64,000 nt of DNA from contig OZ024742.1 in assembly GCA_964016885.1 (NCBI GenBank), positions 148,242,001 to 148,306,000 on the forward strand, in the 5' to 3' direction. Position 1 is the stretch's first letter. Each line of letters starts with the position of its first letter. Below are positions 3,228 to 27,484 of this stretch, piece after piece. The DNA is from Eledone cirrhosa (Eukaryota). The notes beneath the pieces are model-generated. The model was not told the origin of the DNA, made no database searches, and was given only the letters and a program-made list of their open reading frames with translations. Both the position numbers and the translations under genes were made by a program.

Positions 3228-3275
3228 ACAAAGACGTTTCCATAGTGTTACATGCTAAAGTCATCAGTATACTTT
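3228..3275 (-). ncRNA. Degenerate minimal type-I hammerhead ribozyme in the PLE 5' pseudo-LTR
   Basis: Minus strand reads CTGATGA-ctttagcatgtaacactatg-GAAA-cg-TC. Stems I and II are weak. Confidence 0.5.
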
Positions 3276-3404
3276 ATGTCTTACTTAGATTGATGTTGTG
3301 ATTATTTTAACTATTTACAGTCTAGCTAATTTATTTGAGTATTGTTATTATTGGTCTGATTTAATGCCACTACTATATATAGAAGCCATGCCTGTGTATT
3401 TCCT

Positions 3405-3531
3405 TCATTCTCGCATGCTCTGATGAATTGACTCGTTATAACAAAGTATTGGTGATCGATTGATGCAAAAACAAGCGGGTAGCGATCTCTAGACCTACCA
3501 GTTCAGAGAAACAATTGTCAGCAATGTGAAT
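3405..3531 (+). ncRNA. Type-I hammerhead ribozyme with long stem-II insert
   Basis: catgct-CTGATGA(3420-3426)...GAAA-caattg-TC(3519)-agcaatg. Stem III is palindromic. Followed by AATAAA and (TA)n. Confidence 0.7.
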
Positions 3532-4126
3532 AAAGCCCTTATTGTATAGCAAACCATGTCACTTTTCTTTCTTGATATATATATATATATATATATATAT
3601 ATATACACGACTTCAACTATACCATTTACGTGGTTTTGTCTTTGCGTGCAATTGTTCTCCACGTTCCACATATGACGTATTATCTTTGTTTTTTCCGTTC
3701 ATTGCCAGAGAACGTCTCTATGAACCACCTAAGAGAACATTAGTCAACAACTTCTTTTATACCATAAACGTGGTTCTGTCTTTGCGTGTAATTGTTTTTC
3801 ACCGCTCCTATTAATGACGTATTATATTCGTTTTTTCCCGTTCTTTGCCAGGCAACGTTTCCACGAACCAAAGTATCGTCTTCCTGTCTTCCTCCGGTTG
3901 CAACGTTTTTTGAAATATCCACTTCTGCGTTTACAGATTGACTTTGTTAGTTTCAGAAGATCCCGTTAAGGGTGGAAGCAGCGATTCTTTGCTTAAACTT
4001 TAATCTGTTATTTTAATAAATATTTGCTCCACGGTTCTTATATATTTGATATATATTTATCCTTATCGAGCACTCTTTGGATTTTAGTCTTCAAATTTAT
4101 TATTATTACTATATATATATATATAT

Positions 4127-4589
4127 CTAAGGCGGGTAAAATTCCCGAGATCCATGGACGAGTTCTCTACAGCGGTCTCTGTCCCTCATTATCGCTGCCA
4201 TGTCCTGCGTCTCCAACAGACCATCAAGATACGTTAACCTTGGTCTTCCTCTTCTAGTGTGTCCATGTAGGGGCTCCCACAGGAGCACTGAGTGCAACGT
4301 CAACTCTGGATGTCGGTGAGCATGTCCAGCTAACCTCAGTCTCCTCTGTGTCAGTTTTGAGCTGACTTTTGGGATTCTCCCATACAGCTGTGAGTTTTTC
4401 ATCCTCAGTGTATACTGATTAATGTTCAGAGGCTATCCTCAGCATTCTGGTGTAGCACCCATCCACCATCTGAGTGAGTTTCTTAGTCAGTGCCCAAGTC
4501 TCAGACTCGTACAGCAGCACAGACTCCACTACAGCTTGAGATCGGTGTGGAAGTCGGACCTCCGTAAAGACCTGAAAATCCGCCTCTTC
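4127..4589 (-). mobile_element. 5'-truncated RTE-X/RTE-clade LINE with inverted 5' segment
   Basis: Minus: 'QAVVESVLLYESETW..GCYTRMLR..RRLRLAGH..LLWEP..RGRPRLTYLD'. Plus 4540-4589: 'SVWKSDLRKDLKIRLF'. Flanked by (TA)n. Confidence 0.85.
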
Positions 4590-4644
4590 ATATATATATA
4601 TATGTAATTATGCATACACTGACCGTGCCGAAAACTAAAAATAA

Positions 4645-5064
4645 AATTAGAATTTCATTACTCGCCCTAGCACAGCTGATACAAAAATGCGATTATTCAT
4701 ACTTACACGCACACACACACACATATATATATATATATATATATATATATATATATATATATATATATATATATATGTACGTATGGGTTATATCGAGCAT
4801 TAATAATATTGGATTCGTTTGTAGCGGCTTGATTAAAGCTATGCCGTGCCGATGACCAATCATCATCCGTTTGCTCAACACTGGCATTGAGGAACAATCA
4901 ACATGTTTCTGGGTCATTACCCTTCATTAGGACTGTTCGATATAACCCATACGTACATGTATATATGTGTGTGTGTGTATACATATATATCTGTGTGTCC
5001 GTATGTATAATTACATGTATAATTATGTATCAGCTGTGCTAGGGCGAGAAATAAAATTCTAATT
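4645..5064. mobile_element. Short non-coding element with inverted arms and an internal HHR
   Basis: 4645-4682 is inverted at 5027-5064, and 4775-4796 is inverted at 4937-4958. Confidence 0.65.
4895..4935 (-). ncRNA. Minimal type-I hammerhead ribozyme, G5A variant (probably inactive)
   Basis: Minus: cagtc-CTAATGA-a gggt aatg accc a-GAAA-catg-TT-gattg. Stems I and II and a palindromic stem III are all present. Confidence 0.65.
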
Positions 5065-5075
5065 ATATATATATA

Positions 5076-6245
5076 TAAGGTGGTATGTCCACAGAGACAA
5101 TATAAATAACCGGAAGCTTATGAACACAACAACGCTCGCCAATAAAATCTGGCAGCTCAAAGATACAAACCAGGAATACAGAATTAGCTGGGTGAAGTTG
5201 TCAACGGCAATGGCCTATAGAATTGGCATGTCCCATTGTGGACTTTGTAATATGGAATTATTTCATATTTAAAAATATAACAAAATGCTGCTTAACAACA
5301 AAATTGAACGAACAATTTTCTGTAGGCATAAAACGGCGAGCAAATTCGATAATTTTAGATCAACTTAATTCATCCCATCTATTCCATAATTTAAATTGTA
5401 CCACCTGAATCTATTATAATAACCTATTATCATTATTATTATTATTATTGTCATCAACTGTCAATGAACCAACATCATAACCTTTTATATTTTCTCTCTT
5501 TCATTTTCTATATTTCTATTTCTTTCCCTAAATTTATTTCATCTCTTACATTATATTTTATCGTATTATTTTCACTTCCAATATAACTTACAATTAATTA
5601 AATAATTAATTAATTATTTAATTGATTTATTAATGTAACTAATACATACATGAATATATTTAACATTTTCATGTTTATGCCATCATATCTCTATATTTTA
5701 ACCACCAACACCACAACTATTCTCAAAAATCATACTATGTTTACTTTTCTTCGCACATATAAACATTTTTATTTCTATTTTCTATCATATTTTGTATTGT
5801 TTTTTATGATCCTCGATGTAACTTGTTATTAACATTTATTAACTTATTGTTGTTGTCATTGTTTTTTTCTCTTTATTTTTCTTTTTCTTTTTCTTTTTCT
5901 TTTTCTTTTTCTTTAATTTTTATCTTTCTTTCTTCATCCTTTTCTCTTCTTTCTTTTTTTTCTCTCTAACTTTTTTCTCTATAACTTTTTCTTTTTACTT
6001 TTTTCTCATTTTTTTCTCACTCTTTCTTTATTAATGATGTTGTAATTTGAATTCGTAGACACAGCATATTTTTAACAGTTCTTCTGATGATCTGGTTAAG
6101 CTAACAACGTATTTAAAATTGAGTGGCACAACTTTAAGTGTTCAGCAATTTTTAGACAACTTAATCAGTGAAACAATTGTCAAGACTGTAAATAAAACCC
6201 CTTTCTGTACTGTTGACCATGTTATTCTTCACTCTTTCAATATAA
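5076..6245 (+). mobile_element. 3' fragment of a second Naiad-like PLE (GIY-YIG C-terminus, 3' UTR, HHR)
   Basis: Translates as 'RWYVHRDN..TTTLANKIWQLKD..CGLCNMEL..LLNNKIERTIFCRH', homologous to ORF 692-1093. Flanked by (TA)n. Confidence 0.85.
6070..6192 (+). ncRNA. Type-I hammerhead ribozyme with long stem II
   Basis: acagttctt-CTGATGA(6084-6090)-tctggttaag...cttaatcagt-GAAA-caattg-TC(6181)-aagactgt. Confidence 0.8.
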
Positions 6246-25298: not shown

Positions 25299-25396
25299 GG
25301 TATCCTCTTGATAAGTCGGCAGACCTCGCAAGGACTCTATAACTTTATGATGTATTGTTTTTGTTTATGCCACGAAACTACGTAGTCGAGGAATCT
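25299..25396 (+). ncRNA. Type-I hammerhead, U3-A8 variant, copy 2
   Basis: Same core and stems as copy 1; predicted cleavage after 25387. Confidence 0.8.
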
Positions 25397-25463
25397 AGGA
25401 GCAGTTTAGGTATGATACATTTTATTACTAATTATATCTAAATGTTTCTTCTCTCTTCATAAT

Positions 25464-26548
25464 ATATATATATATATATATACATATACATATATATATA
25501 TATATATATGTATATGTATGTGTATATATATATATATATATATATATATATATATATATATATATATATATATATATATATATATATATATATATATATA
25601 TATATACATATATATATATATATATATTTATATATATATACATTTATATATATATACATATATATATGTATATATATGTATATGTATGTGTATATAAATA
25701 TATATATATATATATATATATATATATATATTTATATATATATACATTTATATATATATACATATATATATGTATATATATGTATATGTATGTGTATATA
25801 AATATATATATATATATATATATATATATATATTTATATATATATACATTTATATATATATACATATATATATGTATATATATGTATATGTATGTGTATA
25901 TAAATATATATATATATATATATATATATATATATATATATATATATATATATATATATATATATATATATATATACATTTATATATATATACATATATA
26001 TATGTATATATATGTATATGTATGTGTATATATATATATACATATATATATATATACATATACATATATACATATATATATGTATATATATGTATATGTA
26101 TGTGTATATAAATATATATATATATATATATATACATATACATATATACATATATATATGTATATATGTATATGTATGTGTATATAAATATATATATATA
26201 TATATATATATATATATTTATATATATATACATATTTATATGAATATATATGTATATGTATGTGTATATAAATATATATATATATATATAGATATATATA
26301 TTTATTTATATATATACATTTATATATATATATACATATATATATGTATATATATGTATATGTATGTGTATATATATATATATATATATATATATATATA
26401 TATATATATATATATATATATATATATATATATATATATATATATTTATATATATATACATTTATATATATATACATATATATATGTATATATATGTATA
26501 TATATATATATATATATATATATATATATATATATATATATATATATA
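25464..26548. repeat. ~1.1-kb (TA)n-derived array with higher-order interrupted units
   Basis: Recurring block catttatatatatatacatatatatatgtatatatatgtatatgtatgtgtatata. Confidence 0.95.
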
Positions 26549-26710
26549 TTAGTATTGGTGCTCTGATATAGCGATGTATGCATGAATGTATGTATAGTAT
26601 ACTTGGCAATATACCGTATGTTTAATTTAAACACATTTAGAAGACCATTCGCTACTAGTTTTGAAGTGGTGACTATGTCACTTACTTATATTTTCGGCAA
26701 AAGCTGGAAG

Positions 26711-26756
26711 AATGGCTGATAGTTGTTTCTCGCTGCTTGGCGTTTATCAAAGCCAC
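26711..26756 (-). ncRNA. Hammerhead, U3-A8 variant, in the inverted arm (stem III mutated)
   Basis: Minus: gtggct-TTGATAA-acgc caagca gcga-GAAA-caacta-TC-agccat. Confidence 0.6.
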
Positions 26757-27048
26757 ACACTCACCAGCTGTCAGCCACACACCCAGCTTTTGCCGAAAAC
26801 ATAAGTAAGTGACATAGTCACTACTTCAAAACTAATAGCAAATTGTCTTCTAAATTTTGTTAATTAAACATACGGTATATTACCAAATATACTATACATA
26901 CATTCATGTATACATCGCGATTTCAGAGCACCAATCCTAATATCTAATTTTTTCTGGACCGGCAATCGCTCTGTGTAATCAGCTCCTGGCTGTTACTGGA
27001 ATTCTATAAGAATCCAGCTTCTATAATTTTCGGCAAAGGCAGGTGAGT

Positions 27049-27095
27049 GAGTAACTTTGATAAACGCCAAGCAGCGCGAAACAGCTGTCAGCCAC
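27049..27095 (+). ncRNA. Minimal hammerhead, U3-A8 variant (stem I 5' strand mutated)
   Basis: gtaact-TTGATAA-acgc caagca gcgc-GAAA-cagctg-TC(27089)-agccac. Confidence 0.7.
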
Positions 27096-27373
27096 ACTCC
27101 CAGCTTTTGGTGAAAATATAAGTAAGTGACATAGTCCCTACTTCGAAACTAATAGTGAATGGTCTTCTAAATGTTTTTAACTAAACATACGGTATATTGC
27201 CAAATATACTATTTATACATGGTGTATATATATATATATATATATATATATATATATATATATATATATATATATATATATATATATATATAAATATATA
27301 TATATATATATATATATATATATATATATATATATATATATATATATATATATATATATATGTATATATATAT

Positions 27374-27484
27374 GAAAAAGTATGACCCCGACAGCAGAGC
27401 TCAAGCCATTTCGACGGCTATTTCTGGACTCCAGAAATAGCCGTCGAAACGGCTTGAGCTCTGCCGTCGGGGTCATACTTTTTC
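27374..27484. repeat. Fold-back hairpin with 54-bp arms, 3-nt loop and 2 mismatches
   Basis: gaaaaagtatgaccccgac...tttctgg-act-ccagaaa...gtcggggtcatactttttc, immediately after (TA)n. Confidence 0.95.

What the first reader, a model, noticed from the sequence alone, without database searches (positions are those of the whole stretch)
3228..27484. Common insertion signature: (TA)n target plus 5' fold-back, at scales from 50 bp to 650 bp
Seen: seven independent inverted-arm structures, most abutting (TA)n (4645-5064, 6490-6603, 9394-9557, 16836-19025, 24539-25041, 26547-26942, 27374-27484). Five are linked to clear HHR or PLE sequence, and about 11 HHR motifs lie within 24 kb. Established: PLEs often carry inverted pLTRs and HHRs. 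Inference: an ecosystem of autonomous Naiad/Neptune PLEs and small ribozyme parasites that target TA tracts and generate hairpin DNA by self-priming or template switching.
Basis: partly seen in the sequence, partly recalled or inferred. Interest (0 to 1): 0.75.

Follow-up and report, generated by a model that had tools for sequence, protein, structure and literature searches.

The report
Twin-primed Penelope insertions share stem signal
The hairpin-like repeats beside TA microsatellites are real and common in this genome; they are the known head-to-head ends of Penelope-like jumping genes and their ribozyme-carrying parasites, likely written from both ends of the cut DNA rather than by folding back, and many families share a short stem next to the start sites that likely guides the copying enzyme.

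Summary
All seven inverted structures are real. Two more were missed: the inverted end of a Hydra-clade PLE (3245-3575) and a 2.7-kb host-DNA palindrome on (TA)14. The window is ordinary for this genome: 110 tight hairpins in 1.19 Mb of evenly spaced DNA, 77 abutting (TA)n (background 5.6%), hammerheads 4-fold enriched. Sources are Hydra-clade PLEs, a Neptune/Nematis-type PLE and five hammerhead retrozyme families; the window's PLEs are not Naiads. Most arms are not fold-backs: each family has two fixed 3' ends, and in family 5, 15 of 15 canonical inversions use one at each side. In family 7, 11 of 19 short arms carry sequence the long arm lacks. This favours priming from both target strands on one uncleaved or circular RNA. 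True fold-backs (#3, #4 with the palindrome) are a minority. The head-to-head layout and TA targeting are published, and this scan reached twin priming earlier on other DNA. New here: a covarying RCTC...GAGY stem just 3' of the priming sites in 15 of 32 families and in the autonomous Hydra element, a candidate cis signal. Raw reads confirm strand-switch joints for family 7.

The parts
692..3103 (-). Hydra-clade PLE ORF, broken into four frames (RWK, DKT, YxDD, CxCX5C linker, C-terminal GIY-YIG with CxxC and CxH)
   Evidence: intact 808-aa relatives at 87% identity in the genome
3102..3119 (-). GCTC...GAGC stem just 3' of priming site B of the Hydra element
3245..3575 (+). Inverted copy of the Hydra 3' UTR ending at site A in (TA)n; type I HHR at 3420-3519; missed as an inverted structure
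   Evidence: 96% identical to the element's 3' end in L140; layout
4604..5070 (-). #1: family-1 retrozyme; direct copy 4938 to 4604 on minus with mutated HHR (4900-4930), inverted arm 4940-5070 ending at a family 3' site; TA at both ends
   Evidence: 1375 candidates
5080..6240 (+). 5'-truncated Hydra-type PLE end (EN C-terminus, 3' UTR, HHR 6084-6181), TA at both ends, no inversion
   Evidence: sequence
6421..6603 (-). #2: about 200-nt family-2 retrozyme; site-B arm 6421-6545 on minus, site-A arm 6549-6603 on plus, 5-nt centre; both HHR copies degenerate
9394..9826 (+). #3: 632-nt family-3 retrozyme, 5'-truncated, intact type I HHR 9495-9564; 77-nt arm with 10-nt loop and a non-canonical outer end (likely true fold-back)
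14142..16838 (.). Missed: host-DNA palindrome centred on (TA)14 at 15832-15859; right arm about 980 nt with three deletions, 2% diverged, joined to the inverted arm of #4
16836..19520 (+). #4: 5'-truncated Neptune/Nematis-type PLE (ORF 17674-18417, GIY-YIG PF01541); inverted 3' UTR copy 16836-17493; 11-nt mini fold-back at 17490; U3-A8 HHR 19421-19460; ends at (CT)n(TA)n
24539..25467 (+). #5: 593-nt family-5 retrozyme, 1.35 units; inverted arm ends at site B, direct copy at site A; U3-A8 HHRs at 24710-24800 and 25303-25393; ACTC...GAG motifs at 24880-24939 and 25045-25061
26547..27225 (+). #6: 317-nt family-6 retrozyme; inverted arm from site B (u170), direct copy to about site A; U3-A8 HHR 27052-27094
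27374..27525 (+). #7: very short head-to-head 3' end of a Hydra-type PLE (3' half of a U3-A8 HHR); tail stem ACTC 27494 ... GAGT 27514

Best explanation
These are head-to-head insertions of Penelope-like elements and hammerhead retrozymes in (TA)n tracts, most of them likely made when both ends of the cut target each prime reverse transcription at one of two fixed internal sites on the same RNA, the two cDNAs then being joined at their 3' ends. Shown: TA targeting; two fixed 3' ends (A and B) 20-270 nt downstream of the hammerhead cut site; read-through of that site; use of A at one side and B at the other; a covarying RCTC...GAGY stem 4-12 nt 3' of the sites in many families and in the autonomous Hydra element. 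Inferred: a PLE protein (probably a dimer) binds the stems and cuts both TA strands; the template is uncleaved or circular; retrozymes borrow the Hydra enzyme through the shared stem; tight centres arise because both cDNAs stop near one place (RNA 5' end or a collision) and join through 0-4 nt of microhomology. A minority (#3, #4 with the host palindrome) likely formed by true fold-back or jumps onto DNA.
For: Family 5: 17 of 29 distinct insertions are inverted; 15 have canonical ends and all 15 pair A with B, against 47% expected if ends were independent, P=1.4e-5. Family 7: in 11 of 19 inversions the A arm reaches more than 3 nt further 5' than the B arm, in 1 the reverse; two have almost no overlap. 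L035 carries an arm not contained in its direct copy. Family 2: 10 of 14 two-strand clusters are clear A+B, 4 unclear (read by eye). Family 3 uses one site in 21 of 21 insertions and shows 1 inversion in 20 visible 5' ends. Without any reference: 75 of 110 tight hairpins abut TA on one side, only 2 on both; 17 of 110 one-side-TA repeats have non-TA centres of 2 nt or less, too tight for an intramolecular loop. Arms share subfamily alleles: 35 of 41 (70% expected), 87 of 106 (64% expected), and family 7 differs by 1.9 within against 5.4 between loci. Stem: 15 of 32 tail families against 2.9% background; 9 A-U, 6 G-C, no mismatched pair, Fisher P=2e-4; present after both Hydra sites and both family-7 sites; seen by eye in coral Hydra-2_Amil. 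In vitro, an anole PLE cuts and extends both strands and starts at two internal sites (PMC11167929).
Against: No biochemistry or RNA data for these families. Family 6 has one B/B inversion (L073) and several non-canonical ends among 10 inversions in 27 insertions, and its arms are no more alike within loci (11.2%) than between (9.5%). 6 of 41 family-5 sites are discordant between arms. Family 5's motifs are ACTC...GAGC, which breaks the covariation; family 6 and the Neptune-type family lack the full motif; family 3 has a second, unused motif; 17 of 32 families score negative. The stem is 4-5 bp and is not in the minimum-energy fold for Hydra site B or family-7 site A. Related families are not independent. 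Family-level loci are top-scoring hits, biased to long, young copies. Asymmetric deletion at palindrome centres could mimic some short offsets.
Confidence: 0.7

Rival explanations
1. Self-priming fold-back or template switching on DNA is the general mechanism: the first cDNA (or the nicked TA end) folds back, copies itself and rejoins the target at a TA-like motif.
For: #3 has a 10-nt loop, 3-nt microhomology, identical arms and a non-canonical outer end. #4 has an 11-nt mini fold-back and a non-canonical outer end joined by 'ATA' to 980 nt of inverted host DNA ending in (TA)14. 10 of 4169 sampled TA tracts are centres of palindromes. Shared alleles between arms fit this too.
Against: It cannot give arms with sequence absent from the other arm (11 of 19 in family 7, L035), strict A/B pairing (15 of 15) or centres of 0-2 nt.
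Confidence: 0.15
2. Both target ends prime, but on two separate RNA molecules held by a dimer; A/B pairing reflects an asymmetric complex.
For: Discordant alleles between arms at 6 of 41 and 19 of 106 sites; wide, scattered centres in family 5; one B/B case.
Against: Allele concordance exceeds independence in three families, several discordant sites are CpG, and strict A/B use is simplest on one RNA.
Confidence: 0.1
3. The short hairpins are MITE-like or fixed-hairpin elements copied as units.
For: Families 2 and 7 recur as hairpins in many loci.
Against: Centres differ between copies, many copies have no second arm, long copies continue into a Hydra EN gene or a tandem unit, and one arm always carries a tail.
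Confidence: 0.03
4. The palindromes are long-read or assembly artefacts.
For: #3 has 100% identical arms.
Against: Six of seven have 4-9% substitutions between arms. Opposite-strand joints of family 7 recur in raw Illumina reads of three samples and in contigs of a fourth.
Confidence: 0.02

Closest known systems
Insertion layout of EN+ Penelope-like elements (Craig et al. 2021, PMC8557442; passages, section 11, supplement rows and parts 51-52 read)
   Same: Inverted 5'-truncated copy at the 5' end, partial tandems, a tail at only one end, (TA)n preference in Hydra and Naiad, HHR in the terminal repeat.
   Different: The paper attributes the tail to EN-mediated resolution and calls the mechanism of tandem/inverted structures open. 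Here tails are mostly 55-115 nt rather than 30-40, the two ends alternate strictly in family 5, and a shared stem marks them.
Hydra clade of PLEs, e.g. Hydra-1_Obim, Hydra-2_Amil (PMC8557442)
   Same: RWK, DKT, CxCX5C, CxxC and CxH motifs, C-terminal EN without CCHH, canonical HHR, TA targets.
   Different: New families; about 3.5 kb with UTR against 'generally under 3 kb'; many intact 808-aa copies; no tree built against published members.
Metazoan non-LTR retrozymes (Cervera and de la Pena 2020, PMC7229834, one passage read; Li, Clavereau and Pollet 2026, 10.64898/2026.07.22.740005, part 1 of 5 and passages read, supplements closed)
   Same: Tandem units of 200-630 nt with one type I HHR each, no RT, proposed PLE origin.
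   Different: Term searches found no description of inverted arms or tails in either main text. Li et al. discuss local satellite-like amplification; here arrays have fixed TPRT-type 3' ends and variable 5' ends in TA, so they look retrotransposed as multimers.
PAc Poseidon element in vitro (Frangieh et al. 2024, PMC11167929; parts 1-2 of 4 read)
   Same: Both strands cut and extended, two internal start sites bounding the tail, HHR cleavage not needed, start in a stem-loop, predicted dimer.
   Different: Different clade; start sites there are not homologous to the target, whereas here they are TA-like; the paper does not link this to inverted insertions.
L1 twin priming (Ostertag and Kazazian 2001; recalled, not read)
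   Same: Two primers on one RNA give an inversion joined by microhomology.
   Different: In L1 the second site is random and the arms do not overlap; here both sites are fixed and the arms usually overlap, giving hairpins.

Membership tests
Hydra-clade PLE | RWK, DKT, CxCX5C linker, CxxC and CxH around E and N, C-terminal GIY-YIG | tested here: met
   All in the window's ORF pieces; RWK and DKT in 20 of 20 relatives, all seven motifs in 12 of 20; definition
Hydra-clade PLE | Canonical HHR and (TA)n insertion | tested here: met
   HHR at 3420 and 6084; TA at the ends
Hydra-clade PLE | Phylogenetic placement with published Hydra RTs | not tested
   Only a homolog search: 31-46% identity to unnamed and to sea cucumber and anemone proteins
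Naiad | N-terminal GIY-YIG before RT | tested here: not met
   EN is C-terminal in both window PLE types
Naiad | No canonical HHR | tested here: not met
   Complete type I HHRs in both 3' UTRs. Naiads elsewhere in the genome were not searched.
Neptune/Nematis PLE (#4) | C-terminal EN with CX2-5CxxC linker and CCHH | tested here: met
   CX4CxxC in the window ORF, PF01541; RT thumb, two Cys and both His in relative L239, read by eye after a strict pattern matched none of 29 copies; first His is Asn in the window copy
Neptune/Nematis PLE (#4) | Neptune versus Nematis by RT tree | not tested
   No full RT fetched
Non-LTR retrozyme (families 1, 2, 3, 5, 6) | Tandem units under 1 kb, each with a type I HHR | tested here: met
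   Units of 632, 593, 317 and about 200 nt in tandem; cores conserved in 68 of 69, 53 of 55, 32 of 35 copies; family 1 shows circular permutation but no full tandem was seen
Non-LTR retrozyme (families 1, 2, 3, 5, 6) | No protein coding | tested here: met
   Longest ATG frames 61, 133 and 28 aa in families 3, 5, 6; families 1 and 2 not scanned
Non-LTR retrozyme (families 1, 2, 3, 5, 6) | Self-cleavage and abundant circular RNA | not testable with these tools
   No RNA holder listed; cleavage needs an assay
MITE | Fixed terminal inverted repeats and fixed internal sequence | tested here: not met
   Variable centres, one-sided tails, uninverted copies

The most novel reading that the evidence does not exclude
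A 4-5-bp RCTC...GAGY RNA stem, conserved from coral to this genome's Hydra elements, is the landing signal that sets where the PLE reverse transcriptase starts, a few bases 5' of it. Two such stems on one circular or uncleaved RNA let a dimer prime from both target strands; retrozymes hijack the enzyme by keeping the stems, and the number of stems sets how often a family makes hairpins. This would give the missing cis rule for PLE and retrozyme mobilisation, recorded in roughly 280,000 genomic hairpins.
Probability: 0.35. Interest if true: 0.72.

Novelty: new variant of a known kind. Interest (0 to 1): 0.45.

Why it matters
How PLEs build their tandem and inverted insertions, and how protein-less retrozymes are mobilised, are named as open questions in the papers read. 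The fixed, alternating ends and the shared stem turn both into direct tests with young families and intact 808-aa Hydra ORFs from one genome. By extrapolation the process has left about 280,000 short palindromes and about 340,000 hammerhead motifs in this 3-Gb genome, which matters for repeat annotation, false miRNA calls and genome stability. The elements themselves are of known kinds.

Tried and rejected
Rfam scan: only spurious miRNA-like hits on simple repeats, no hammerhead. Pfam found no domain in the four Hydra ORF pieces. Own-genome DNA search with #7 returned nothing because common words are skipped; the evenly spaced sample was used instead. Laying contigs and reads on the #3 junction gave no verdict: no record bridged it. 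Run search: no RNA holder listed. A self-BLAST for inversions in the 30 family-4 loci printed none, not even the window's known one, so it was uninformative. A strict motif pattern for family-4 EN matched none of 29 copies. My first reading of #1 as tail-to-tail was wrong. An apparent coding end upstream of family 7 is 3' UTR of a Hydra EN gene. The HHR-like motif at 3233-3267 is a junction chimera. The U3-A8 core of families 4-7 is not new (PMC4209133, passage read). Idea that both cDNAs run off at the HHR cut site: rejected, since nearly all copies read through it. Idea of a transcription start at the family-7 stall zone: only weakly supported, TATA-like word in 2 of 5 long copies and a recalled Inr-like word. 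Literature searches for a PLE twin-priming model or a tail stem found none beyond PMC11167929; subscription papers and bioRxiv supplements were not visible.
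Full report
1. Observation. The window lies in a 3.0-Gb animal genome, G000:C3:148242001-148306000. Self-BLAST recovers all seven inverted structures. Arms differ by 0-9% substitutions. Two more exist: a palindrome at 14142-16838 centred on (TA)14, and 3245-3575, a 96% inverted copy of the 3' end of the PLE at 692-3103, whose other arm lies in the 10 kb left of the window. A type I hammerhead descriptor gives 4 hits in 3228-27484 against 0.1 in shuffles. By hand there are 12 cores and two halves, about half intact. 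The motif at 3233-3267 is a junction chimera.

2. Is it more than chance, and is the window special? I sampled 119 evenly spaced 10-kb stretches (1.19 Mb; 97 from the four largest contigs). After masking simple repeats there are 272 inverted repeats, 110 with near-zero spacer by BLAST. 77 of these 110 abut (TA)4 or more at an outer end (75 at one end, 2 at both), against 306 of 5500 random intervals. The descriptor finds 135 hammerheads against 3 in one shuffle; 24 of 110 tight repeats lie within 150 bp of one, against 5.4%, and 27 of 103 wider ones against 9.4%. The descriptor is strict and many hairpins hold only half a ribozyme, so these are lower bounds. The window is only mildly dense: 4.3 expected, 8 seen, P about 0.07.

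3. Artefact? Six of seven have diverged arms. Raw Illumina reads from three samples and contigs from a fourth show opposite-strand joints in family 7, many recurring in all three read sets, and about 3,000 reads per run enter (TA)n at 27488. The #3 junction got no verdict.

4. What the elements are. The PLE at 692-3103 has RWK, DKT, CxCX5C, CxxC and CxH and a C-terminal EN, the definition of the Hydra clade. The genome holds many intact 808-aa relatives; the end at 5080-6240 is of the same type. #7 is the 3' end of another Hydra-type element, with 53 clusters of hits in the sample, L140 and the window. #4 is a Neptune/Nematis-type PLE with a C-terminal GIY-YIG that runs to about 19520. Neither is a Naiad. 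#1, #2, #3, #5 and #6 belong to hammerhead repeat families with 951-1428 search candidates each; four have tandem units of about 200, 632, 593 and 317 nt, which is the description of non-LTR retrozymes. Families 4-7 use the U3-A8 core, already reported in PLEs.

5. Anatomy. Every family has fixed 3' ends at TA-like motifs, 20-270 nt downstream of the hammerhead cut site, and variable 5' ends; copies read through the cut site, sometimes for many units. So the template is uncleaved or circular (inferred). Family 3 uses one site in 21 of 21 insertions and is inverted in 1 of 20 with a visible 5' end, the window's own. Family 5 has two sites, u80 and u242-250; 17 of 29 insertions are inverted, and the 15 with canonical ends all pair one site with the other (P=1.4e-5). 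Family 6: 10 of 27 inverted, with one same-site case and several odd ends. Family 7: of 19 inversions, the arm from the upstream site reaches more than 3 nt further 5' than the tail-bearing arm in 11, the reverse in 1; two barely overlap. Family 2: 10 of 14 clear, 4 unclear. Among 110 repeats with TA on one side, 42 have centres of 10 nt or less and 21 of 2 nt or less, 4 of these being TA tracts. Arms share subfamily alleles more than chance but not perfectly (35 of 41; 87 of 106). These family loci are the top 40 hits of each search, so they favour long, young copies; duplicates of one insertion were dropped before counting.

6. A shared signal. Of 91 tails closing on TA, grouped into 32 families, 15 families have RCTC within 25 nt of the arm end and GAGY further on, against 2.9% of random windows; the outer pair is A-U in 9 and G-C in 6, never mismatched (P=2e-4). 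The motif follows both sites of the window's Hydra element and of family 7, the one site of family 3, and is the only such pair of motifs in family 5, at both sites, though there as ACTC...GAGC. Family 2 has it at site A and GCAC...GTGC at site B. Family 6 and the Neptune-type family lack the full form, and folding does not always recover the stem. In the supplement of PMC8557442, coral Hydra-2_Amil has GCTC...GAGC after its hammerhead and Hydra-1_Amil a wobble form (read by eye; 2 complete consensi seen). It could act as RNA or as DNA. I found no mention in my literature searches or in the scan's notes.

7. Mechanism. Best reading (0.7): the enzyme cuts both strands of (TA)n, each end anneals to a TA-like site just 5' of a stem on one RNA, and the two cDNAs are joined by short microhomology. 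This matches the in vitro behaviour of an anole PLE, which cuts and extends both strands from two internal sites without needing ribozyme cleavage. Why centres are tight in families 2 and 7 is open: run-off at an RNA 5' end (an idea from earlier scan notes, weakly supported here) or a trailing enzyme meeting a stalled one. True fold-back explains a minority. In #3 the arm is nested, loops over 10 nt and ends off-site. In #4, one strand can be read as cDNA, an 11-nt fold-back, 625 nt of its own 3' UTR, a jump via 'ATA' to host DNA, and 980 nt copied with three skips into (TA)14. Arm divergence of the palindrome (19 of 971) and of #4 (11 of 331) is compatible with one event (P=0.2), not proof of it.

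8. Known versus new. The inverted 5'-truncated copy, one-sided tail and TA bias are published for PLEs. A PLE origin of retrozymes has been argued from distribution and phylogeny. I reached twin priming before consulting the scan's notes, which had reached it several times in this and other genomes; those notes are not independent support. What this window adds is the unbiased enrichment test, the cross-family stem shared with the autonomous element, and one clear case of TA-centred host duplication tied to a PLE.

9. Verdict. Real, genome-wide, mostly known in kind. New variant of a known kind; interest 0.45.

Noticed in passing
window 45771-64000 and 39160-40780: 18-kb satellite of ACAACCATTACCACC-like units (periods 18, 54, 162) and a shorter array; inverted relative at 29868-30670 (18-nt period).
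   Followed up: no
window 12123-13343 (-): C-terminal part of a non-LTR RT with a restriction-like endonuclease-type motif (label recalled), flanked by (TATG)n; copies of its 3' UTR at 11856-12224 and 14053-14629.
   Followed up: no
window 21122-24231 (-) and 42745-45149 (+): Two APE-plus-RT non-LTR retrotransposons; the first is split by a frameshift and lies between (TA)n tracts.
   Followed up: partly
window 15022-15564, 15937-16253, 32409, 33474, 34762; L253, L254, L259, L260, L267: A 114-nt SINE-like unit forms tandem arrays here, and the same element sits in or beside an AT-rich site of the family-1 retrozyme in 5 of 20 loci, suggesting a preferred landing site.
   Followed up: no
L152:2202, L187:251, L187:2683, L197:5193, L208:5441: Short flank duplications of the form (TA)n, inverted 25-110 nt, (TA)n, flank; 10 of 4169 sampled TA tracts are palindrome centres; possibly TA self-priming without an RNA template.
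   Followed up: partly
L132:3852-9200; L137:4141-9700; L014-L019: Long retrozyme arrays (310-nt units head to head with 1.7-kb arms; 556-nt and 632-nt units).
   Followed up: partly
window 7756-8724: Low-complexity (GAC/AAC)n then (CAC)n tract with open frames on both strands; probably simple repeat.
   Followed up: no
window 3607-4118 and 4118-4590: A further TA-bounded hammerhead-family end (relatives form hairpins in L094 and L106) and an RT-like fragment between TA tracts.
   Followed up: no
window 6330-6400: Short piece carrying the GTATTGAGTAC tail motif of families 2 and 7, next to #2.
   Followed up: no
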